Shown: positions 49,126-64,000 of the stretch, piece by piece
Numbering within the stretch: position 1 is the stretch's first letter
How the letters are laid out: every line of letters starts with the position of its first letter
Sequence record: MZ234025.1
Direction: 5' to 3' (one strand)
Length of the DNA stretch: 64,000 nt
Origin: Escherichia phage vB_EcoM-172859UKE1
Position numbers and translations under genes: made by a program
Notes under the pieces: model-generated
Seen by the model: the letters and a program-made list of their open reading frames with translations, nothing else
What the model was told of the DNA's origin: nothing
The model's database searches: none

Positions 49126-49860
49126 ATGGAGCTAATCTTTTTAAGTGGCATCAAACGTAGTGGCAAAGATACTACTGCTGATTACATCAATTCAAACTTT
49201 AAATCCGTAAAATACCAATTGGCATATCCGATTAAAGACGCTCTAGCAATAGCCTGGGGGCGTAAACATGCTGAAAACCCTGATGTATTCACCGAGTTGA
49301 AATACGAATACTTTGAAGGCATTGGATACGACCGTGAAACACCATTAAATCTCAATAAGTTGGATGTTATTGAATTATTGGAAGAAGCGCTAATTTATTT
49401 GCAAAGTCAATATTTACCGATTAATAATGTTAAAGTATTATCATCGTTAGAAGGTGGATATTCGTATCTAGATATTAAACCATATGAAGCCCTGCGTGAA
49501 GCTATAAATAATATCAACGACACATGGTCAATCCGCCGTCTTATGCAAGCCCTCGGTACGGATGTTGTCGTTAATTTATTTGACCGTATGTATTGGGTTA
49601 AGCTTTTTGCATTAAACTATATGGATTATATTGGAAGTGATTTCGATTACTATGTTGTAACCGATACACGTCAAGTCCATGAAATGGAAACCGCTAGAGC
49701 GATGGGTGCTACAGTTATTCATGTGGTTCGCTCTGGTACGGAATCCACCGATAAACATATTACAGAAGCTGGGTTGCCTATTGAAGAAGGCGATTTAGTT
49801 ATTACAAACGACGGCTCTTTAGAAGAGCTTTATTCTAAAATTGAAACAATCTTAAGGTAA
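49126..49860 (+). CDS. 1: deoxynucleoside monophosphate kinase gp1
   Basis: 244 aa (T4 241); P-loop GIKRSGKDT at N-terminus. Confidence 0.85.
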   Translation: MELIFLSGIKRSGKDTTADYINSNFKSVKYQLAYPIKDALAIAWGRKHAENPDVFTELKYEYFEGIGYDRETPLNLNKLDVIELLEEALIYLQSQYLPINNVKVLSSLEGGYSYLDIKPYEALREAINNINDTWSIRRLMQALGTDVVVNLFDRMYWVKLFALNYMDYIGSDFDYYVVTDTRQVHEMETARAMGATVIHVVRSGTESTDKHITEAGLPIEEGDLVITNDGSLEELYSKIETILR

Positions 49861-49864
49861 TAAA

Positions 49865-50550
<686 letters not shown>

Positions 50551-52421: not shown

Positions 52422-52496
52422 GGCCCTGTAGCTCAATGGGAGAGCTGTCAGCTCATAACTGATAGGTAGCTGGATCGAAACCAGCCAGGGTCACCA
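52422..52496 (+). tRNA. tRNA, anticodon CAU (Met, or Ile if C34 is modified), CCA encoded
   Basis: Manual cloverleaf: acceptor GGCCCTG/CAGGGTC, D-stem GCTC/GAGC, anticodon loop CTCATAA, T-stem GCTGG/CCAGC, 75 nt. Confidence 0.8.
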
Positions 52497-52499
52497 ATC

Positions 52500-52576
<77 letters not shown>

Positions 52577-55626: not shown

Positions 55627-56229
55627 ATGCGAAACCAAAATAATGATATTGACTCAATGTTCGAAGAGTTCCGAGATAAGGTAAATCCACCTACGTCTTT
55701 AGTTGATTCATTACGATATGTTGCAACCGGACGTAAATGGTACTGGTCGTCTTCTTATGAGACTACTGAGAAAACGGCTAGCCATAGCAGAAAATCTTTA
55801 TTAGCCCCAGGTATTATGATTCATGATATCGGAGCTATTGCTAAACTAGTTGCAGACCATGATATTAGATTCACTGATTTCGTTGCTCCTACATGGTCTG
55901 TTTGTTGTTTAAACACTGAATTGGAATATATCAGCGAACGCTCTGAAGATTATTATGGTTTTAGAGATAAGCTTCTGAGGTCTAATATGTTTTATATCGA
56001 TACAGAAGTTCTAGTCGATAATAAAAAATATTACTTTACGTTAATCATCGATTCTGAAACTATGTATGAAGGCAAGCCTTTGCTTAAAAGAGTTGATGCT
56101 TTAAGTGCTATTGATGCGCTTTATGAAACTATGGTTGTTAGTCCTAATTTCACTAACAATTTAATCCTTGAGCAATTTATTATGGAATGTAGAGAATATG
56201 TCAAAGCCAACCCTGTACATGCCAATTAA
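55627..56229 (+). CDS. hypothetical protein (200 aa) with junction motif FIMECR near the C-terminus
   Basis: ATG 55627 with AAAGGAG SD. Confidence 0.55.
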   Translation: MRNQNNDIDSMFEEFRDKVNPPTSLVDSLRYVATGRKWYWSSSYETTEKTASHSRKSLLAPGIMIHDIGAIAKLVADHDIRFTDFVAPTWSVCCLNTELEYISERSEDYYGFRDKLLRSNMFYIDTEVLVDNKKYYFTLIIDSETMYEGKPLLKRVDALSAIDALYETMVVSPNFTNNLILEQFIMECREYVKANPVHAN

Positions 56230-56593
56230 GCCCTGGGCGTATGAATACAAGCGTAAATTAATCCCAAACGAAGTACTATTTGGCCCTATTTTAGCTTTAG
56301 CATTTTTAATCTTTATGATTGTAGGAGCTGTTTTAGATTCTAGTGAAGTTATATCGTCTGATGCAGTGTTTTTACTTATTATAGCCGGGTCGTTTATTGT
56401 GCCATTTTTATTAATGCCTATTAACTGGGTGGGATATTGGTACCAAGGCCGTCATCACAGAGCTCGAGTTCGTGAATGGAAAGTTCAGTGCGCAAAAGCC
56501 AAAGCTCAGTATGATGAAGCTGTTAAAAAGTATGAATATGAAGAAGCTATGGAATTCGTTAAGGAAATAAGATGCAAAAGCCTCAACTCTTAA
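56198..56593 (+). CDS. small 2-TM membrane protein (131 aa), C-terminal ..EFVKEIRCK..
   Basis: ATG 56198 (track starts at TTG 56168); two hydrophobic helices; overlaps upstream gene by 32 nt. Confidence 0.5.
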   Translation: MSKPTLYMPIKPWAYEYKRKLIPNEVLFGPILALAFLIFMIVGAVLDSSEVISSDAVFLLIIAGSFIVPFLLMPINWVGYWYQGRHHRARVREWKVQCAKAKAQYDEAVKKYEYEEAMEFVKEIRCKSLNS

Positions 56594-56931
56594 CCGTATG
56601 GCCTTCTCTTGGTGAGAACATTCTAATTTTTATTATGAGTATTGGCATGGGATTTGCCTTTGGATTAGTTGGATTTCTTATTGACGGCGTTGTGTTAGGA
56701 TTTATAGGGAACACTGGTGGATTCACAGACCAATGGCAGGACTTACGATATACTCAAGCCTTTGCATCAATCGCATCCTTTTGTACAGTAGTCTATTTTT
56801 ACTACGATTTTATAAACCATAACAAGAAAAATAAAAAGGTTTACGCTTCTCAAATGATTAGTTATAATGAACTCCTAGCTAGACGTGAAAATGAAACAAT
56901 CGAAAACTTTATTAAGGAATGTAGAAAATGA
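56572..56931 (+). CDS. small multi-TM membrane protein (119 aa), C-terminal ..ENFIKECRK
   Basis: ATG directly after the upstream junction motif. Confidence 0.5.
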   Translation: MQKPQLLTVWPSLGENILIFIMSIGMGFAFGLVGFLIDGVVLGFIGNTGGFTDQWQDLRYTQAFASIASFCTVVYFYYDFINHNKKNKKVYASQMISYNELLARRENETIENFIKECRK

Positions 56932-57233
56932 GTAAGATTATTGAAATTAAAGTACCAGAGTTTAATGATGCCAAATCCGCTTCAGATGCAATTTATAAAC
57001 TTCTGAATCAAGCTGAACGTATCGAAGAAGAAGCAACAAAGATCGCAGACCAATATGCCGTATCATTTTCTGTAGGTGATTATGGTAGCGGTCGTACTTA
57101 TTATCCTAAGGGTGAAATCGTATCCCAGTGGATGAAAGATGAAATTGAAAATAATGGTGGCGATGTTAAGCGTGAAGGTAATGGTTACGTTATTACTGAA
57201 GGTGCTTGGGTTTCGTCTTCTGCGTTGTGCTAA
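56928..57233 (+). CDS. paralog A of tandem family ending GAWVSSSALC (101 aa)
   Basis: ATGA-coupled; shares C-terminal G-x-W-V-x-S-S-x-x-C with the next two genes. Confidence 0.55.
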   Translation: MSKIIEIKVPEFNDAKSASDAIYKLLNQAERIEEEATKIADQYAVSFSVGDYGSGRTYYPKGEIVSQWMKDEIENNGGDVKREGNGYVITEGAWVSSSALC

Positions 57234-57242
57234 GGAATCATT

Positions 57243-57515
57243 ATGTCTAAAGAACAAACCGAACTGGCTGAAGCTGTAGCAAAAATCTATGCAGCTATTG
57301 AGGCTGCCAAAGAAATTGCTGATAAACAAAACACAACATTCGACTTGTATCCAGCTTATGGTATGGGTGGAACCTATCATTCACCCGGACATCTTAAAGC
57401 CGATCTTGAACGTTGTACAAAAAACGGTTATGCTGAATGGGCTGATGTTTATCAATACGACTACAACCTGAGCCTTGAAGATGGTGGTTGGGTTGCATCT
57501 TCACACACTTGCTAA
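57243..57515 (+). CDS. paralog B of tandem family ending GGWVASSHTC (90 aa)
   Basis: SD TAAGGAA; conserved junction TGC-TAA-GGAA. Confidence 0.55.
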   Translation: MSKEQTELAEAVAKIYAAIEAAKEIADKQNTTFDLYPAYGMGGTYHSPGHLKADLERCTKNGYAEWADVYQYDYNLSLEDGGWVASSHTC

Positions 57516-57524
57516 GGAAACCAT

Positions 57525-57722
57525 ATGTCTCGTGAATTAGATTGTGCTGTACGTACCGCGGTAGCTGCTCTAGAAAACCTGTTCCAAATTGCAACAGAAG
57601 AACGCGAAGAAGTTACATTATGGATTGAAGATAACGCAGGTCTGAATCTCCAGGACGCGATCTCATTATCTAATAATAGCATTACTGTTCAAGGCTGGGT
57701 ATCGTCTAGTTATTCTTGCTAA
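57525..57722 (+). CDS. paralog C of tandem family ending QGWVSSSYSC (65 aa)
   Basis: SD AAGGAAA; conserved junction TGC-TAA-GGAA. Confidence 0.55.
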   Translation: MSRELDCAVRTAVAALENLFQIATEEREEVTLWIEDNAGLNLQDAISLSNNSITVQGWVSSSYSC

Positions 57723-57726
57723 AACA

Positions 57727-57756
57727 GTTTACAATAAGATAGGACTATGTTATAGT
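57727..57756 (+). promoter_or_regulatory. T4-type early promoter cassette with GGACTA/TAGTCC inverted repeat
   Basis: GTTTAC 57727-57732, TATAGT 57751-57756. Confidence 0.6.
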
Positions 57757-57784
57757 AGTCCTATCAAATTAAATGGAGTCCGCA

Positions 57785-58024
57785 ATGATTTATTACGAAA
57801 GTATCGGAACCAAAGTGATTGGTAAAACCATTACTCGTGAAAAGTTTGCAAAGATATTCGATATGCGTTATAAAAAATCTGAACACAAAGGCATCCGATT
57901 CGAAGATGCGCACTGTACAATTTGCCCTTATAATGAAGACATAAATGGTACAATCGTTCCATTGGTAGAGGCTTCACATGATGACCTCTGGGATGAATAT
58001 AATATCGCATGTCGTGAAATTTAA
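57785..58024 (+). CDS. hypothetical protein (79 aa)
   Basis: ATG 57785 with GGAG 6 nt upstream. Confidence 0.5.
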   Translation: MIYYESIGTKVIGKTITREKFAKIFDMRYKKSEHKGIRFEDAHCTICPYNEDINGTIVPLVEASHDDLWDEYNIACREI

Positions 58025-58052: not shown

Positions 58053-59009
58053 ATGATGTTAGTTATTGGTTCTCGTGCACTTCACTATCATGGTCTTATT
58101 GATTCTAGCGCTATCAAAAATAGTGATTGGGACTTTATTGCGGACCAAGGTTCTTGGAATGCATTCAAAAATCAAATGATGGGTGTATATGTTCACCAAG
58201 ATAACCCTGATGTCCAAGTTTTCAAATGCTTCCATAATGGACGCGAAACTCATTTTGAAGCATATATTGTTCCGGCGATCACTAATGTCCGTGAATTAGT
58301 CGGTGAACTCACTCCTGAAGATTTCACGTCTTCTTATGACCTTTTAAAATACGCCAAGAAAAATTTGACTAAAGACCGTTTGACCGGGTTTTACTGGGCA
58401 ACTCCTGAGATATGTCTTGCAATTAAAATGTCTCATCGTTTCAAGAAAAATAATCCATTCTTTTTAAAGACTATGAACCATATTCAGTATCTTCGCGGTA
58501 AAGGTGTTACACTGAACGATGAACTTACTGAAATTATGCTGAAACGCCAGAAAGAAACTTTGAACTATGCTCACCCGGTTCTTGACACTTCTAAAAGTGC
58601 GTTCTTTAAAGATGACATCTATACATATGACCATGATACTATTCATGAAGCCATTGCACTAACTGACCAGCCTGCTTATAAGTTTTATATGAAAGAAGGC
58701 TCAGAAGTTATGACATCACGCGAGAAGTTCGAATCATTACCAGAAATGGTTAAATTAGCCGGTGTATATGAAGAAGCTTGTGTATTAGCTCTTGAACGTT
58801 CACAGATTCCTAACGACTTTAAAATCCATCCGAGTGATAGTTTTATGATGGCCCTTGAAAAGGTCTGTACATCAATCACATCAGGATGGTTCCGTGAGTT
58901 CGCTTGGGAAAATTATAGCAAAGTAGTAAGTATGTACCAAAGCTTAGGACATGACGATTACGTCAAGCGTTTCAAACAAAACTTTCATATGGTAAAACCT
59001 TTCAAATAA
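58053..59009 (+). CDS. hypothetical 318-aa protein; N-terminus has a GS...DxD pattern weakly reminiscent of Pol-beta-type nucleotidyltransferases
   Basis: ATG with GAGGAAAA SD; VIGSRALHYHGLIDSSAIKNSDWDFIAD; functional call is inference only. Confidence 0.55.
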   Translation: MMLVIGSRALHYHGLIDSSAIKNSDWDFIADQGSWNAFKNQMMGVYVHQDNPDVQVFKCFHNGRETHFEAYIVPAITNVRELVGELTPEDFTSSYDLLKYAKKNLTKDRLTGFYWATPEICLAIKMSHRFKKNNPFFLKTMNHIQYLRGKGVTLNDELTEIMLKRQKETLNYAHPVLDTSKSAFFKDDIYTYDHDTIHEAIALTDQPAYKFYMKEGSEVMTSREKFESLPEMVKLAGVYEEACVLALERSQIPNDFKIHPSDSFMMALEKVCTSITSGWFREFAWENYSKVVSMYQSLGHDDYVKRFKQNFHMVKPFK

Positions 59010-59021
59010 TTTCACAAAACA

Positions 59022-59051
59022 GTTTACAAGGTCTGTAGTTGTTGATACTAT
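59022..59051 (+). promoter_or_regulatory. T4-type early promoter cassette
   Basis: AAAACAGTTTACA, TACTAT 59046-59051. Confidence 0.6.
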
Positions 59052-59092: not shown

Positions 59093-59290
59093 ACTACTTT
59101 GAATAAACGTTTCGGTAAAGCTAAACCTGGTTGTGCAGCAGAACGTCGTTATGTTTTCGCTCAGTTAGAAGATGTAGAGTATCAGATTAATCAAGTTCAC
59201 ATTACTGGTATCGAGCCTATGTGTGGCCTTGAAGCTCTTCGTGAAGTTCGTGATGGGTATCGTCGTGACATCGAAGAAATGTCAAAATAA
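59090..59290 (+). CDS. hypothetical small protein (66 aa)
   Basis: ATG 59090; track ORF N-extended. Confidence 0.5.
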   Translation: MTTLNKRFGKAKPGCAAERRYVFAQLEDVEYQINQVHITGIEPMCGLEALREVRDGYRRDIEEMSK

Positions 59291-59320
59291 GTGTACAAAC
59301 TGATAGGGCTATGTTATAGT
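59291..59320 (+). promoter_or_regulatory. early promoter cassette (variant -35 GTGTAC) with inverted repeat
   Basis: GTGTAC 59291-59296, TATAGT 59315-59320. Confidence 0.5.
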
Positions 59321-59346
59321 AGTCCTATCAACTTGAGGAGAATATT

Positions 59347-59652
59347 ATGAAATTAACAGAAACCAACCGAATCGGTCTTTTTACAATATTTGCATCGCTT
59401 TTTTACGCAGCTCTTTCTGTTGCAGTATTACAAAAGGCTTACGATATGGATGGTGTTCCTGGTTGTATATTTTTATCACCGTTTTTATTATTCGTCGGAG
59501 CTTTGATATTATATGCCACGTCCGGTTTAGACCATAATGTCTGGGTCAATTATAAACGTAAATTGTCCGAAGAAGAACACGCAGAAGCTCGTAAAAAAGC
59601 TATTGAATCTACCAATCTAGAAAATTTCATTAAAGAATGTCGAGGAAAATAA
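59347..59652 (+). CDS. small 2-TM membrane protein (101 aa), C-terminal ..ENFIKECRGK
   Basis: SD GAGGAG; hydrophobic helices. Confidence 0.55.
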   Translation: MKLTETNRIGLFTIFASLFYAALSVAVLQKAYDMDGVPGCIFLSPFLLFVGALILYATSGLDHNVWVNYKRKLSEEEHAEARKKAIESTNLENFIKECRGK

Positions 59653-59653
59653 T

Positions 59654-60340
59654 ATGAATAGTTCTAAAGTGTTTAATAGTCAAGCTCGTGCAGTAGGTGG
59701 TTTTGCCGGCGGTATTTCTAATGATAAAATCAAGAACGAGCCTATGTTCTTCAACTGTAGTTTAGAATTTGCTTATAATAACGGCGGTCCTATTACTCGC
59801 TCTTTCATTATGAACTTGCCGGATGATTGGAACACCGACCAGGTTGTATTTGATTCACGAGTCCACATGCTGATGCCTGGTTGGTATCCTGCAATCCCAG
59901 GCTATCACCATGATGACGTACCACGCCCAGATATTCCAGTTGGTCAACACTTTATTACTGCAGGACAACCTGACTATGACAACCCTCGTTACCATTCTGA
60001 ACATATTCTTGGTCTTGTTAACGCTGATGTGTGTCCTACTCATTTTGCAACAGGAACTGCGGAGTTCAGTCAGATTCCTTATGGCGAACTTATCTATCGC
60101 CAGTGGCACAAAGAAGTCCTCGAAAAAATTGAAAAAGGTGAACTAGAGAAATGGGAAGCTCCAGATCGTACTCTTCTTCAGTTTGATTGGCAAACATGGC
60201 ACACTGGTTCTCGTGCAATTAGTAACGGATGGCGTTGGTTCGGACGTGTATCTCGTAATACAGACCGAGTTAAAAAGATTACCAATGAAATTCGTGTCAA
60301 TGCTCAAGTTTATCTGGAATTCCCTATGGAAGGCTGGTAA
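59654..60340 (+). CDS. hypothetical protein (228 aa), His/Asp-rich
   Basis: Starts 1 nt after previous stop, directly after the junction motif. Confidence 0.55.
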   Translation: MNSSKVFNSQARAVGGFAGGISNDKIKNEPMFFNCSLEFAYNNGGPITRSFIMNLPDDWNTDQVVFDSRVHMLMPGWYPAIPGYHHDDVPRPDIPVGQHFITAGQPDYDNPRYHSEHILGLVNADVCPTHFATGTAEFSQIPYGELIYRQWHKEVLEKIEKGELEKWEAPDRTLLQFDWQTWHTGSRAISNGWRWFGRVSRNTDRVKKITNEIRVNAQVYLEFPMEGW

Positions 60341-60831
60341 TGATACATAAAATTCACTGGGCAAACATGGACGATGACGACGAAGGTACTTCATATTATT
60401 CTATAGATTGGACAGGATGTCCATCCTACTTAGTGAAACGTCATTGTCAAGCATTTAAAATCGACCAGCCAGCAGGTATTATTGTGAACAGATACATTAA
60501 CGGATATCAACCTATCGATGAAGTAATACGAACAACTCAAGCTGAGCTTGAAAAGTTTTTCAATAAGTGCCAATGGATAACAGGATGGATTATATTTGTA
60601 CCGTCAGTGTGGTTTTTTAGTACTAAGGTGAGTTCTTTCGGTTTTGTTGATATTATTGCTATCTTATTAGCATCTAGTATCATAAGTGTTGTTGGTGGCA
60701 TCATTGGCGGCGGTACCGCCGCCATCATTATTAATCTTATTAAAAGTAGTTTACAAGAACATAAAGACAAGATAAAAGCCAAGAATAATGAAGTTGAACG
60801 TTTTATTACCGAATGCAGGAATTTGAGATGA
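60340..60831 (+). CDS. membrane protein (163 aa): soluble N-domain ending ..LEKFFNKCQ fused to TM segment, C-terminal ..ERFITECRNLR
   Basis: TAATG-coupled; internal and terminal copies of the junction motif. Confidence 0.55.
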   Translation: MIHKIHWANMDDDDEGTSYYSIDWTGCPSYLVKRHCQAFKIDQPAGIIVNRYINGYQPIDEVIRTTQAELEKFFNKCQWITGWIIFVPSVWFFSTKVSSFGFVDIIAILLASSIISVVGGIIGGGTAAIIINLIKSSLQEHKDKIKAKNNEVERFITECRNLR

Positions 60832-61064
60832 GTATAGCAATTTACATTAAATCAGAATCATGTGATAGTTATCTGTACACATATGATAAAGATGTGTCAG
60901 AAGAAAAAATCAAAGACGATCTTAATATGGACCTTGATTTGTTCCGTCCTATTGCAGATTACAAACTTGCGGTCTCTAATAGTGAAAGTCCATCTAAAGA
61001 AACGCGCATTGAAGAATTTATGTCAGAATTAATGGCCAAATCATGGGACCGAGATGATGAGTAA
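60828..61064 (+). CDS. hypothetical small protein (78 aa)
   Basis: ATGA-coupled at 60828. Confidence 0.5.
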   Translation: MSIAIYIKSESCDSYLYTYDKDVSEEKIKDDLNMDLDLFRPIADYKLAVSNSESPSKETRIEEFMSELMAKSWDRDDE

Positions 61065-61512
61065 GAAAAATAAAGTGAAAGAACTATCAGCCGGTATTAT
61101 CTTCATGACAAAAGATAAAGAGTTATTCATGGGGCGTGTAACTGGTTCTCGTCCTAAAGGTGCATTAGCTCATCGGTGGGATATTCCTAAAGGCCGTGTC
61201 GAACCCGGCGAATCTCCTATTGAAGCCGCTATTCGTGAATGCGAAGAAGAAACTGGGTTTACACAATATGACCCTGCCTTCCTGAAAGACCTAGGTGAAC
61301 ATAATTACTCAGACAATAAGAATATTCATCTGTTCCTATATACCATCCCTGTAGAGCACGAGCAATTCAGAAACAGTGTTTGTAATTCTTATCATACATT
61401 CCCAGACGGACGACAGATTCCTGAATTTGATGCATTCGCTTTAATTAAACCTTCTCAATGGGAATATGTAATGGGCAAATCATTATATAAGGTGCTCACT
61501 ACCCTCCTATAA
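61057..61512 (+). CDS. nudE: Nudix hydrolase NudE
   Basis: 151 aa; Nudix box GRVEPGESPIEAAIRECEEETGF; immediately upstream of e as in T4. Confidence 0.8.
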   Translation: MSKKNKVKELSAGIIFMTKDKELFMGRVTGSRPKGALAHRWDIPKGRVEPGESPIEAAIRECEEETGFTQYDPAFLKDLGEHNYSDNKNIHLFLYTIPVEHEQFRNSVCNSYHTFPDGRQIPEFDAFALIKPSQWEYVMGKSLYKVLTTLL

Positions 61513-61521
61513 GTAATAAAT

Positions 61522-61543
61522 ACCTCCTATAAACGTGGGAGGT
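61522..61543 (+). promoter_or_regulatory. RBS-sequestering hairpin of gene e (ACCTCC...GGAGGT) with embedded late-promoter-like AT box
   Basis: 5' arm ACCTCC pairs with SD GGAGGT 4 nt before the e ATG; loop TATAAACGTGG; upstream AATAAATA at 61514-61521. Confidence 0.5.
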
Positions 61544-61546
61544 ATT

Positions 61547-62035
61547 ATGAATATATTTGAAATGCTTCGTAATGACGAAGGTCTTAGACTGACTTTATAC
61601 AAAGACACTGAAGGCTTTTGGACGATTGGCATAGGCCATTTAGTAACAAAGAACCCGTCTTTAGCCGTAGCTAAAGCTGAACTTGACAGAATGATCGGTC
61701 GTAAATGCAACGGTACAATTACCCTTGATGAGGCTGAAAAGCTATTTAATGAAGACGTTGATAAAGCCGTTCGCGGAATCTTGGGTAATGCTAAACTTAA
61801 ACCGGTATACGATTCTTTAGATGCGGTTCGTCGATGTGCATTGGTCAATATGGTCTTCCAAATGGGTGTAGCAGGCGTCGCCGGTTTTACTAATTCTCTT
61901 CGTATGCTTCAACAGAAACGTTGGGACGAAGCGGCAGTAAATCTAGCCCAATCTAAATGGTATCGTCAGACACCTAATCGCGCGAAACGCGTAATCTCAA
62001 CATTTAAAACAGGAACTTGGAAAGCGTATATATGA
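61547..62035 (+). CDS. e: endolysin (T4 lysozyme e)
   Basis: 162 aa; near-identical to recalled T4 lysozyme ([27 protein letters not shown]; catalytic E11, D20, T26 present); track ORF starts 12 nt upstream. Confidence 0.95.
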
Positions 62036-62313
62036 AAACATATAGTGAATTTTTATCAGAATCTATTCTTAGCGAAGCTACTGACACATTTGCAACTAAG
62101 CTAGGTGCAGCTTTGGTTGAAGCTGAAAGTCTATTAGCACGTATTTCTGAACTTGCTAGTAAGATAGATACTCGCAAATTTGAGCGCACTAGTGATATCG
62201 TTAAGCTTGAAGCATTGTTGCGCATGTGCGATAAACCGGAAGAAATCGCTAAGAACGGCTCTCTAATGAAACAACGTCTTGAAAAATATATTTCAGGCGC
62301 TTCAGAAAAATAG
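62032..62313 (+). CDS. internal-protein-like protein with CTS ([11 protein letters not shown]..)
   Basis: 93 aa; ATGA-coupled to e; N-terminal capsid targeting sequence. Confidence 0.6.
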
Positions 62314-62314
62314 T

Positions 62315-62344
62315 GTTTACTTCCTCCAAGAGTTTTGATACTAT
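62315..62344 (+). promoter_or_regulatory. T4-type early promoter cassette upstream of denV
   Basis: GTTTAC 62315-62320, TACTAT 62339-62344. Confidence 0.6.
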
Positions 62345-62371
62345 ACATTCATCAACTACTTGGAGGAAATT

Positions 62372-62785
62372 ATGACCCGTATCAATTTAACACTTGTTTC
62401 TGAACTGGCCGACCAACATCTTATGGCTGAGTATCGTGAATTACCTCGTGTATTCGGTGCAGTCCGTAAACATGTCCAAAACGGTAAACGTGTAAAAGAT
62501 TTTAAAATCTCTCCAACATTTATCTTAGGCACAGGTCACGTAACATTCTTTTACGACAAACTCGAATTTTTACGTTTACGACAAATCGAGCTAATCGCTG
62601 AATGTTTGAAACGTGGTTTCAAAATCAAGGACACGACAGTCCAGGATATTTCCGACATCCCTGCCGAATTTCGTAATAATTATGTCCCGTCCGAAGCGTC
62701 CATTGCGATAAGTCAAGCACGCTTAGATGAAAAAATTGCTCAACGTCCGACTTGGTACAAATACTATGGTAAATCAATTTACTAA
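62372..62785 (+). CDS. denV: endonuclease V (pyrimidine dimer DNA glycosylase) DenV
   Basis: 137 aa; near-identical to recalled T4 DenV ([34 protein letters not shown]...). Confidence 0.9.
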
Positions 62786-62791
62786 GGAAAA

Positions 62792-62908
62792 ATGAAAATG
62801 TATCAAGAATTTATCATTGAAGCAGATGCCAAAGGTCCTAAAGTAGATGTTGACGATATTGGATACGATTTTAACAACTTCGGAATTATTTCTGGCGGTA
62901 AAGCTTAA
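62792..62908 (+). CDS. mini internal-protein-like ORF (38 aa) with CTS-like start MKMYQEFIIE
   Basis: ATG 62792 with GGAAAA SD; below track cutoff; could be a remnant. Confidence 0.35.
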   Translation: MKMYQEFIIEADAKGPKVDVDDIGYDFNNFGIISGGKA

Positions 62909-62911
62909 ATT

Positions 62912-62941
62912 GTTTACGCTTAAGTATTAATATGGTATAAT
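62912..62941 (+). promoter_or_regulatory. early promoter (GTTTAC-N18-TATAAT)
   Basis: GTTTAC 62912-62917, perfect TATAAT 62936-62941. Confidence 0.6.
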
Positions 62942-62971
62942 TACTCTATCAAAACAAACAAGGAAACAAAA

Positions 62972-63286
62972 ATGAAAACGTATAAAGAATTTATTGCAGA
63001 ATCCGCCAACCAACGCGTTGAAGGCGGTTATATTTGGATTGAACAAGTTGAACCACCGAGCCGCACTTCTACAGGTAAATGGAAAATTACTGTTGATGGT
63101 CCTGGTGGTAAACGTAGGACCCTTAAAGAAATTAATGGGTACTATGAAGAAGCTCTTTCGGATGCAGGAACTTACATGATGCAAATCATGATTAAAAACC
63201 CTGAAAACCGTTTTGCAGCTAAAGTCTTCCGTCGCATCGGTAATAAACTTTATGATGCATACTCTAAAAACTTCCCTAAAGAATAA
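62972..63286 (+). CDS. internal-protein-like protein with CTS (MKTYKEFIAES..)
   Basis: 104 aa; N-terminus matches the T4 IP capsid targeting sequence. Confidence 0.6.
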   Translation: MKTYKEFIAESANQRVEGGYIWIEQVEPPSRTSTGKWKITVDGPGGKRRTLKEINGYYEEALSDAGTYMMQIMIKNPENRFAAKVFRRIGNKLYDAYSKNFPKE

Positions 63287-63311
63287 CATAAATTAAAACA
63301 ATAGGAACAAA

Positions 63312-63641
63312 ATGAAAACGTATCAAGAGTTTATCACTGAAGTTACATTATCTGCGGAACAGAAAGCTGCTATCGAAGAAGGTAAAAATCCCAAAGTAAC
63401 ATATAAAGTAAATAGTAAAGGCGTTTTTGATGGTTTGGTTCAAGACCCTGAATTGAAAAAAGCTCTTTCTAAAACTAATGCGTACTTTGCTCCTAAATTT
63501 AACACAGCCGGTGTACTTATTGGATTGGATGTATTCAACTCTAAAGGTGTTCTATCTAGTGCCTTTGGTTATGCCGCTAACAAAATTACCAAAGCTGCAT
63601 GGGAATCCAATACCAAACAAGCTCAAAAGCCTAGAGTATAA
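63312..63641 (+). CDS. internal-protein-like protein with CTS (MKTYQEFITEV..)
   Basis: 109 aa; CTS N-terminus. Confidence 0.6.
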   Translation: MKTYQEFITEVTLSAEQKAAIEEGKNPKVTYKVNSKGVFDGLVQDPELKKALSKTNAYFAPKFNTAGVLIGLDVFNSKGVLSSAFGYAANKITKAAWESNTKQAQKPRV

Positions 63642-63814
63642 TTCTTGCCTAATAAAGGGAAACGCAACCTCTCCTCATGAACGTCGAGTCCTCTGAGTGA
63701 TGTACCTTTTCCAACCTGTAATAAGGTCGAGCCCAAGTGCGGTAATGGGTTTACATAGCGAGTCGAAGGACCTAACATGTGCCACGGAATGGCCCCAACC
63801 TTAAGAGAAACTAA

Positions 63815-64000
63815 ATGAGAACATTTTTAACCGGACCTTATCTATCCCTGATGAATGCTTTTACACACCATTCTGATGCTAGAGTAGAAGAAATTTGTAA
63901 GAACGGTTATGCCCCACCGTTTGAAGACGTACTCAAGCAGTACTGTACACTTCGTTTAGACGGCGGCAGACAATCCGGTAAATCAATTGCTGTGACTAAT
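63815..64000 (+). CDS. 5' part of a gene encoding a P-loop protein (..LDGGRQSGKS..), truncated by window end
   Basis: ATG 63815; Walker-A-like GGRQSGKS; frame open to window end. Confidence 0.4.
   Translation, partial: MRTFLTGPYLSLMNAFTHHSDARVEEICKNGYAPPFEDVLKQYCTLRLDGGRQSGKSIAVTN

What the first reader, a model, noticed from the sequence alone, without database searches (positions are those of the whole stretch)
58053..59009. 318-aa early protein with a possible nucleotidyltransferase-like N-terminus
Largest unknown ORF in the early region. N-terminus VIGSRALHYHGLIDSSAIKNSDWDFIAD has a G-S followed about 18 residues later by D-x-D, loosely like the hG[GS]...[DE]h[DE] signature of Pol-beta-fold nucleotidyltransferases. 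If real, a phage nucleotidyltransferase near an Acb1-like gene could relate to nucleotide signalling or tRNA repair. Motif spacing is atypical, so this is a weak call.
Basis: inference. Interest (0 to 1): 0.5.

Follow-up and report, generated by a model that had tools for sequence, protein, structure and literature searches.

The report
Phage nucleotidyltransferase with small partner proteins
The 318-aa early gene does encode a nucleotide-transferring enzyme of an uncharacterised, phage-only family. In very different phages it lies next to one to five tiny acidic proteins that all end in the same W-x-S-S-x-x-C tail, which suggests an unstudied two-part system.

Summary

Pfam lists the protein only as DUF7277+DUF7275, and I found no paper on it. 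The family is large: 733 phage records and about 1,600 clusters at 50% identity. It is absent from the syntenic T4 region. Its most conserved part is a helical C-terminal half with invariant His/Asp/Glu/Arg residues and no PDB match.

New here: in 82 of 83 long-form loci, spanning about 20 unrelated phage groups, one to five small acidic proteins (median 86 aa) lie just upstream on the same strand. All end in G-x-W-x-S-S-x-x-C-stop. The window has three (56928-57722). A shorter enzyme subfamily lacks them (6/6).

The acceptor is unresolved. I slightly favour nucleotidylylation of these partner proteins over a MenT-like RNA 3'-end reaction gated by them. Interest is moderate to high.

The parts
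58053..59009 (+). Gene for the 318-aa nucleotidyltransferase (Pfam DUF7277 + DUF7275; phrog_2141)
   Evidence: ORF and translation. Pfam DUF7277 residues 2-101 at 9e-28 and DUF7275 residues 120-305 at 1e-78. phrog_2141 at 3e-149. AF2 pLDDT 91.6, pTM 0.86.
58053..58397 (+). Catalytic N-lobe (residues 1 to about 115): G6-S7 (58068-58073), D25/D27 (58125-58133), E69 (58257-58259)
58398..59006 (+). Helical C-lobe (residues 116-318). It carries an AbiEii motif-III-like K125-M-S-H-R-F-K-K132 and position 143 (D in 71% of homologues, H here). It also carries the 100% invariant H128, K139, H194-D195, H198, E240-E241 and E248-R249, and the long-subfamily motif C272-T-S-I-T-S-G-W-F-R281.
56928..57233 (+). 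Small acidic partner protein 1 (101 aa, pI 4.6), ends ...EGAWVSSSALC-stop
   Evidence: phrog_899 at 1.3e-22. No Pfam match above threshold.
57243..57515 (+). Small acidic partner protein 2 (90 aa, pI 4.7), ends ...GGWVASSHTC-stop
57525..57722 (+). Small acidic partner protein 3 (65 aa, pI 4.05), ends ...QGWVSSSYSC-stop
   Evidence: phrog_4882 at 1e-36.
57773..58024 (+). Intervening 83-aa ORF (phrog_3723). Its membership in the module is doubtful because it is conserved only among enterobacterial T4-like phages.
   Evidence: The neighbour-family analysis puts it in one phage group only (family 24).
57728..57756 (+). T4-early-type promoter-like site ahead of the 83-aa ORF and the NTase gene. Similar sites lie at 56840-56868, ahead of the small genes, and at 59023-59051, after the NTase gene.
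   Evidence: Consensus scan only. The total count is not above the shuffle expectation, so this is an inference.

Best explanation
The gene encodes an active Pol-beta-superfamily nucleotidyltransferase of a phage-specific, uncharacterised family. Its architecture is closest to the AbiEii/MenT (DUF1814) toxins: a small catalytic beta-sheet lobe with G-S ... D-x-D ... E that binds Mg2+ and NTP, followed by helices carrying a conserved Lys/Arg motif. A family-specific helical lobe with invariant His/Asp/Glu/Arg residues completes the cleft.

The gene sits in the early region. It works as a two-component module with the small acidic proteins encoded just upstream, which share a compact fold and an invariant C-terminal G-x-W-x-S-S-x-x-C end.

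My favoured mechanism is inferred, not shown. The enzyme takes an NTP and transfers the NMP, or starts a short chain, onto a hydroxyl of the conserved Ser-Ser(-Ser) cap of these partner proteins. The long-subfamily motif TSITSGWFRE would be the docking surface. The modified mini-proteins, which differ in a hypervariable acidic insert, would be the actual effectors in host takeover or anti-defence.

Confidence by layer: NTase fold and intact active site about 0.9; functional coupling to the small proteins about 0.8; the small proteins being the covalent acceptor about 0.35.

For: Module:
- A C-terminal pattern W.[SAGNP]S[ST].{1,3}C gave 171 hits among 27,477 stop-terminated segments of 86 loci. 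Nearly all are on the same strand within 2.8 kb upstream of the NTase gene.
- With a relaxed pattern, 82 of 83 long-form loci in about 20 groups sharing under 25% of neighbour families have a hit.
- The only hits in the 64-kb window are the three upstream ORFs. There are none in 170 kb of NTase-less phage DNA, including the syntenic T4 region.
- The reverse test also holds: starting from three small-protein homologues, a DUF7275 gene lies 70 bp to 2.5 kb downstream in every contig.
- The short enzyme subfamily lacks both the TSITSGWFRE motif and the small genes, 6 of 6.

Substrate idea: several tandem paralogues share an invariant terminal motif rich in hydroxyls but differ elsewhere, which is the usual pattern for substrates of an adjacent modifying enzyme. 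From established knowledge, Pol-beta NTases that nucleotidylylate proteins exist: MntA on HepT, GlnD on PII, and CitX/MdcG on small acidic carrier proteins.
Against: The AF2 model of the 90-aa protein puts the 'tail' inside the fold, with strand 81-85 and a short helical cap 86-89. The invariant serines could therefore be structural helix caps rather than acceptors.

The short subfamily keeps every catalytic and C-lobe invariant without any such partner, so the core reaction does not need these proteins. The best structural relatives act on tRNA 3' ends, and MenT1 is inhibited by a small upstream-encoded protein (PMC10435456), which fits the rival explanation equally well.

In the window a promoter-like site and an 83-aa ORF separate the small genes from the NTase gene. 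An apparent natural fusion of the two proteins turned out to be a read-through gene-calling artefact.
Confidence: 0.4

Rival explanations
1. MenT/AbiEii-like RNA 3'-end nucleotidyltransferase. The enzyme adds nucleotides to tRNA or other RNA 3'-OH ends, either to disable host tRNAs or to repair damaged acceptor ends. The small acidic upstream proteins would be non-covalent partners, acting as MenA1-like inhibitors, timers or targeting adaptors.
For: The best PDB matches are MenT1, TglT/MenT3 and MenT4. The protein shares the long motif I-II spacer and has a motif-III-like K-M-S-H-R-F-K-K. MenA1 is a 68-aa protein encoded upstream of MenT1 that blocks its active site. There are many invariant Lys/Arg residues. 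The short subfamily keeps the catalytic set without the small proteins. tRNA arrays lie within 10 kb in groups 0, 8, 12, 14 and 16 and in L078. Rnl1, Pnkp or RNA ligase genes lie nearby in several other lineages, and in one case Pnkp directly abuts the small gene.
Confidence: 0.3
2. Small-molecule or signal-nucleotide enzyme. Like ANT(2'')-Ia or LnuA, it would nucleotidylylate a small hydroxyl-bearing metabolite or antiphage compound. Alternatively, like the RlaP-type phage NTases, it would make competitor (cyclic) nucleotides. The small proteins, with their Gly-rich YGMGG loop, would bind the product.
Against: The TIR-STING-inhibiting NTases belong to a different family. Av05_0062 is Pfam RlaP and shows no similarity to this protein (BLASTP E 1.8), and the Av-05 record has no homologue of it. 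The ANT/Lnu similarity is confined to the generic core. Nothing links the small proteins to nucleotide binding.
Confidence: 0.12
3. Catalytically inert scaffold. The NTase fold would be retained only as a binding module, and the adjacency to the small genes would reflect shared early regulation without functional coupling.
For: No activity has ever been measured. The gene sits in a block of poorly understood early genes.
Against: Near-complete conservation of all three carboxylates, the G-S and about 15 further polar residues across 263 members at 50% identity or less is not expected for a scaffold. Adjacency persists in about 20 phage groups with otherwise unrelated neighbourhoods.
Confidence: 0.03

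Closest known systems
AbiEii / MenT1, MenT3 (TglT), MenT4: DUF1814 nucleotidyltransferase toxins
   Different: No detectable sequence-profile match to Pfam DUF1814. Motif IV (+DxxD) is not reproduced (K-T-M-x-D/H). About 170 C-terminal residues with an invariant H...HD..H...EE...ER set have no counterpart. It is encoded by lytic phages in an early-gene block, not in a bacterial bicistronic TA operon. It has one to five paralogous upstream partners with an invariant W-x-S-S-x-x-C end. No tRNA activity is known.
Minimal small-molecule NTases: ANT(2'')-Ia (AadB), LnuA, JHP933, TM1012
   Different: Those proteins are 155-225 aa with a short helical cap that binds an antibiotic. This one has a large, extremely conserved extra lobe and protein partners. 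It is not in a resistance context.
Protein-nucleotidylylating Pol-beta NTases: MntA-HepT (type VII TA), GlnD-PII, CitX/MdcG with acyl-carrier subunits
   Same: Analogy of mechanism only, from established knowledge. In these systems a Pol-beta NTase transfers a nucleotide-containing group to a Tyr or Ser hydroxyl of a small partner protein encoded next to it.
RlaP-type phage NTases that inhibit TIR-STING (BCP1, Av05; Ho et al. 2022 preprint)
   Same: Phage-encoded Pol-beta NTases in accessory-gene regions, with an S-D-W-D catalytic tetrad in some members.
   Different: A different family: Pfam RlaP, motif GS-x-AY[GAN]T-x4-SDxD with a short spacer. There is no similarity to this protein (E 1.8), and Av-05 has no homologue of it.

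Membership tests
DNA polymerase beta-like nucleotidyltransferase superfamily | Core alpha-beta-alpha-beta-alpha-beta fold | tested here: met
DNA polymerase beta-like nucleotidyltransferase superfamily | hG[GS] motif after the first strand | tested here: met
   V4-I5-G6-S7. G is 99% and S 97% conserved in 263 members.
DNA polymerase beta-like nucleotidyltransferase superfamily | [DE]h[DE]h on strand 2 plus a third carboxylate on a later strand | tested here: met
   D25-W-D27-F at 99% and 100%. E69 lies in strand 64-73 and is always E or D.
DNA polymerase beta-like nucleotidyltransferase superfamily | Mg2+-dependent NMP transfer activity | not testable with these tools
   This needs an enzyme assay.
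AbiEii/MenT (Pfam DUF1814, PF08843) | Match to the family profile | tested here: not met
   A Pfam scan at E up to 10 returns only DUF7275 and DUF7277. A profile search of PDB sequences finds no MenT.
AbiEii/MenT (Pfam DUF1814, PF08843) | Motifs I-II with extended spacer, hG[GS]x15DhD | tested here: met
   hGSx17DhD, against the definition in PMC3985639.
AbiEii/MenT (Pfam DUF1814, PF08843) | Motif III KLxAaxxR | tested here: inconclusive
   K125-[ML]-S-H-R-[FY]-x-[KR]132. The Lys is 100% conserved and the basic residue at +7 is conserved, but the aromatic is at +5, not +4.
AbiEii/MenT (Pfam DUF1814, PF08843) | Motif IV, +DxxD pentad | tested here: not met
   The equivalent stretch is K139-T-M-x-[D/H]143. 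Position 143 is D in 71% and H in 25% of members, including this protein.
AbiEii/MenT (Pfam DUF1814, PF08843) | Toxicity through tRNA 3'-end extension, neutralised by a cognate antitoxin | not testable with these tools
   Only the gene arrangement (small genes upstream) is reminiscent.
RlaP-type phage NTases (anti-TIR-STING) | GS-x-AY[GAN]T-x4-SDxD and a downstream NP-x-h2[DE] motif; Pfam RlaP | tested here: not met
   The spacer is 17 rather than about 10. There is no RlaP hit. BLASTP against Av05_0062 gives E 1.8, and Av05_0062 itself is RlaP.
HD-domain phosphohydrolases (considered for the C-lobe because of H...HD...H) | HD all-helical fold | tested here: not met
Pfam DUF7277 + DUF7275 / phrog_2141 | Profile matches above the curated cut-offs | tested here: met
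   97.2 and 263.7 bits against a cut-off of 27. phrog_2141 at 3e-149.

The most novel reading that the evidence does not exclude
The enzyme and the W-x-S-S-x-x-C mini-proteins would form a new kind of phage protein-modification system. The NTase would covalently load nucleotides onto the invariant Ser/Cys end of a set of hypervariable acidic mini-proteins. Possible outcomes are simple nucleotidylylation, a protein-primed oligonucleotide, or activation of Ser for further chemistry with the terminal Cys. The resulting protein-nucleotide conjugates would act as decoys or inhibitors of host nucleic-acid-sensing or tRNA-targeting immunity.
Probability: 0.2. Interest if true: 0.85.

Novelty: new variant of a known kind. 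Interest (0 to 1): 0.6.

Why it matters
This is one of the larger conserved phage gene families still without a function: 733 of 50,697 phage records and about 1,600 clusters at 50% identity. It occurs in T4-like, rV5-like, jumbo, Acinetobacter, Aeromonas, Pseudomonas, Xanthomonas, Vibrio and actinophage genomes. It has probably escaped study because it is missing from the syntenic region of T4 itself.

Three results turn a 'hypothetical protein' into a directly testable two-gene system: the enzyme is an intact NTase, it is structurally nearest to the AbiEii/MenT anti-phage toxins, and it is tied to a previously unnoticed family of mini-proteins with an invariant C-terminal motif.

Either outcome would be informative. 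One would be a phage copy of a bacterial tRNA-modifying toxin with its own regulators. The other would be a new protein nucleotidylylation pathway. Both bear on host takeover and counter-defence in therapeutic Mosigvirus-type phages.

Tried and rejected
1. Sequence searches against PDB, with the single sequence and with the profile, gave only a chance PsaB hit. NCBIfam gave a sub-threshold HisJ hit, and PADLOC gave nothing.
3. The idea of a Zn or Cys site in the C-lobe was weakened. C243 is only 60% conserved, and both Cys are absent in the short subfamily.
4. Identity with the Ho et al. anti-TIR-STING phage NTases was rejected.
5. A role in the RB69-type arabinosyl-5-hydroxycytosine pathway was rejected. 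That pathway uses other genes and a sugar-nucleotidyltransferase fold (PMC13326640).
6. The Rosetta-stone fusion P0257 (small protein + NTase) is a read-through of a TAG stop, not a fusion.
7. tRNA linkage: outside enterobacterial T4-like phages only 5 loci have tRNAs within 10 kb. This is suggestive, not significant.
8. Other recurrent neighbours (Nampt, exonuclease, PhoH, SprT-like, RNR, homing endonucleases) are generic or weakly linked.
10. Literature searches for DUF7275, DUF7277, phage NTases, and tRNA repair or counter-defence found no paper on this family.

Full report
**Observation.** The window is a Mosigvirus (T4-like) genome segment. The ORF product is 100% identical to a 'hypothetical protein' of Shigella phage SSE1. 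The antisense frame is closed. A Shine-Dalgarno-like sequence and a T4-early-type promoter-like site (57728-57756) precede it. The neighbours follow the T4 order: dNMP kinase (49126-49860), Acb1 (50095-50550, Pfam 1.3e-58), two tRNAs (52422-52576), then a block of small early ORFs, NudE, lysozyme e and DenV. T4 itself has neither this gene nor its partners in the syntenic region.

**What the protein is.**
- *Databases.* Pfam knows it only as DUF7277 (residues 2-101) plus DUF7275 (120-305), and PHROGs as phrog_2141, function unknown. Sequence searches of PDB, NCBIfam and PADLOC are empty.
- *Family size.* tblastn finds 733 phage records. These include T4-like phages of enterobacteria, Aeromonas and Acinetobacter, Phapecoctavirus-like coliphages, Pseudomonas, Xanthomonas, Vibrio, Streptomyces and Gordonia phages. 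A few Acinetobacter records carry the annotation 'putative nucleotidyltransferase'. The word-indexed search finds more than 2,100 proteins. An exhaustive profile search finds 1,604 clusters at 50% identity, nearly all about 300 aa.
- *Conservation.* In 40 diverse members, and then in 263, the N-terminal G6-S7, D25, D27 and E/D69 are 94-100% conserved. These are the three Pol-beta NTase motifs. K125, H128, K139, H194, D195, H198, E240, E241, E248 and R249 in the helical half are 100% conserved.
- *Spacer.* The 'atypical' 17-residue spacer between G-S and D-x-D matches the defining peculiarity of AbiEii/DUF1814, hG[GS]x15DhD (PMC3985639). K125-M-S-H-R-F-K-K132 resembles their motif III (KLxAaxxR). 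Motif IV (+DxxD) is not reproduced, and its candidate Asp is His here (D 71%, H 25% in the family).

Strict membership in DUF1814 is not supported.

**Surroundings: a conserved partner.** I fetched 80 related loci from IMG/VR with 10-kb flanks, called ORFs, clustered all neighbours and grouped loci by shared gene content. One neighbour family stood out. These are small proteins lying immediately upstream on the same strand in at least 9 otherwise unrelated groups, often as 2-3 tandem paralogues. They all end in G-x-W-x-[SA]-S-S-x-x-C followed by the stop codon.

- *Pattern scan.* A regular expression for that ending gave 171 hits among 27,477 stop-terminated reading-frame segments. Almost all lie on the NTase strand within 2.8 kb upstream, in 78 of 86 sources. 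A relaxed pattern (for example W-D-S-S-T-C) recovers four more.
- *Background.* In the full 64-kb window the only three hits are ORFs 56928-57233, 57243-57515 and 57525-57722. About 170 kb of phage DNA without the enzyme (the whole Av-05 record, T4 62-80 kb and three Vibrio loci) has none.
- *Reverse test.* Contigs found from three small-protein homologues all carry a DUF7275 gene 70 bp to 2.5 kb downstream.
- *Properties.* The 180 unique small proteins have a median length of 86 aa and a median pI of 4.4. They share an N-terminal helix, a YG(M/S)GG(T)Y(YP) loop, a hypervariable acidic insert and the invariant end. They match phrog_899 and phrog_4882 and no Pfam family.
- *Short subfamily.* A shorter enzyme subfamily (250-264 aa; Streptomyces, Gordonia and several Vibrio phages) keeps G-S, D-x-D, K-x-S-H, H-D-x-x-H, E-E and E-R. 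It lacks the C272-TSITSGWFRE motif, and it has no such small genes within 3-5 kb in 6 of 6 loci.

Partner genes and a specific surface motif of the enzyme therefore appear and disappear together.

**Other context.** tRNA arrays lie within 10 kb in enterobacterial T4-likes (inherited synteny) and in five other loci. Rnl1, Pnkp or RNA ligase genes lie within 10 kb in several further lineages, and in one contig Pnkp directly abuts the small gene. Nampt lies within 6 kb in six groups. I had no background distribution, so these count only as hints of an RNA or nucleotide theme. Both window tRNAs encode their CCA.

**Mechanism.**
- *Shown by computation.* The protein has an intact NTase active site, and it is genomically coupled to the mini-proteins.
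- *Inferred.* It transfers NMP from an NTP to a hydroxyl acceptor.
- *Favoured model (about 0.35).* The acceptor is the Ser-rich C-terminal cap of the mini-proteins. Tandem paralogues that share only an invariant terminal motif next to a modifying enzyme are the usual signature of substrates. Pol-beta NTases that modify small partner proteins are established (MntA-HepT, GlnD-PII, CitX/MdcG; from my own knowledge).
- *Main rival (about 0.3).* This is a MenT-like RNA or tRNA 3'-end reaction, with the mini-proteins acting as MenA1-like blockers or adaptors. It is supported by the structural neighbours, by the partner-less short subfamily, and by the fact that the 'tail' is folded into the protein core.
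- *Lesser rival (about 0.12).* It is a small-molecule or signalling-nucleotide enzyme.
- *Unlikely.* An inert scaffold does not fit the conservation.

**Comparison with known systems and novelty.** The phage NTases reported to inhibit TIR-STING by making cGAMP/cAA (bioRxiv 10.1101/2022.06.09.495361) are a different family. The Av05 enzyme is Av05_0062, Pfam RlaP, and has no similarity to this protein. The Av-05 record has no homologue of this protein. The RB69-type DNA arabinosylation pathway uses other genes. A comparative review of jumbo phages lists RlaP and CCA-adding enzymes but not this family. Searches for the DUF names returned no paper. I rate the finding as a new variant of a known kind: a known superfamily and an AbiEii/MenT-like build, with a new conserved lobe and a new obligate partner family.

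**Correction.** P0257 looked like a fusion of a mini-protein with the enzyme. Its DNA shows a TAG stop between the two ORFs. It is therefore only another case of adjacency.

Noticed in passing
window 56168-56593, 56572-56931, 59347-59652, 60340-60831 (+): Four predicted membrane proteins (141, 119, 101 and 163 aa) flank the module. They end in a shared C-terminal motif E-x-F-[IV]-[KT]-E-[CI]-R (…ENFIKECRK, …ENFIKECRGK, …ERFITECRNLR, …MEFVKEIRCKSLNS). This looks like a paralogous family of unknown function.
   Followed up: no
window 62017-62313, 62972-63286, 63312-63641 (+): Three ORFs start with MKTY(S/K/Q)EF(L/I)(S/A/T)E. From my knowledge of T4, this is the capsid-targeting sequence of internal head proteins, so they are probably IP-type injected proteins.
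   Followed up: no
L086-L088 (GenBank KM190144, Escherichia phage Av-05); L088 3125-8257 versus window 59285-64000: The Av-05 record is classified as Vequintavirinae. It nevertheless carries a segment 94-98% identical to this Mosigvirus window (NudE, lysozyme, DenV, IP, regB, tk, rI), starting right after the NTase gene. This looks like a chimeric assembly or a recent mosaic.
   Followed up: partly
window 57738-57765: A 10-bp perfect inverted repeat (GATAGGACTA...TAGTCCTATC) overlaps the early-promoter-like site between the small genes and the 83-aa ORF.
   Followed up: no
L021 9406-9627, L030 9343-9576, L032 9709-9954, L036 9730-9957, L048 9176-9394: A subset of the mini-proteins carries the motif twice: an internal D-W-x-S-S-x-C-Y-G-E-G as well as the C-terminal W-x-x-S-S-C. 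In the internal copy the W-x-S-S-x-C motif runs directly into the YGxG loop motif. This may mean the two motifs lie next to each other in the fold.
   Followed up: no
window 52422-52496 and 52500-52576 (+): These are tRNA-Met(CAT) and tRNA-Arg(TCT), and both encode CCA. The CAT tRNA could be an Ile-lysidine tRNA, as in T4.
   Followed up: partly
L102 107-1240 (ENA ERZ23498405 scaffold_61451): The gene caller read through an in-frame TAG and merged a mini-protein with the NTase. This is either an annotation artefact or a hint of TAG recoding in that phage.
   Followed up: partly
L005 1-2163; L035, L037, L039, L040, L076, L077, L081 and L083: Nicotinamide phosphoribosyltransferase (Nampt) lies within about 6 kb of the NTase gene in six unrelated phage groups. 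In Vibrio phage K460 it sits with PRPP-synthetase-like and phosphatase genes.
   Followed up: partly
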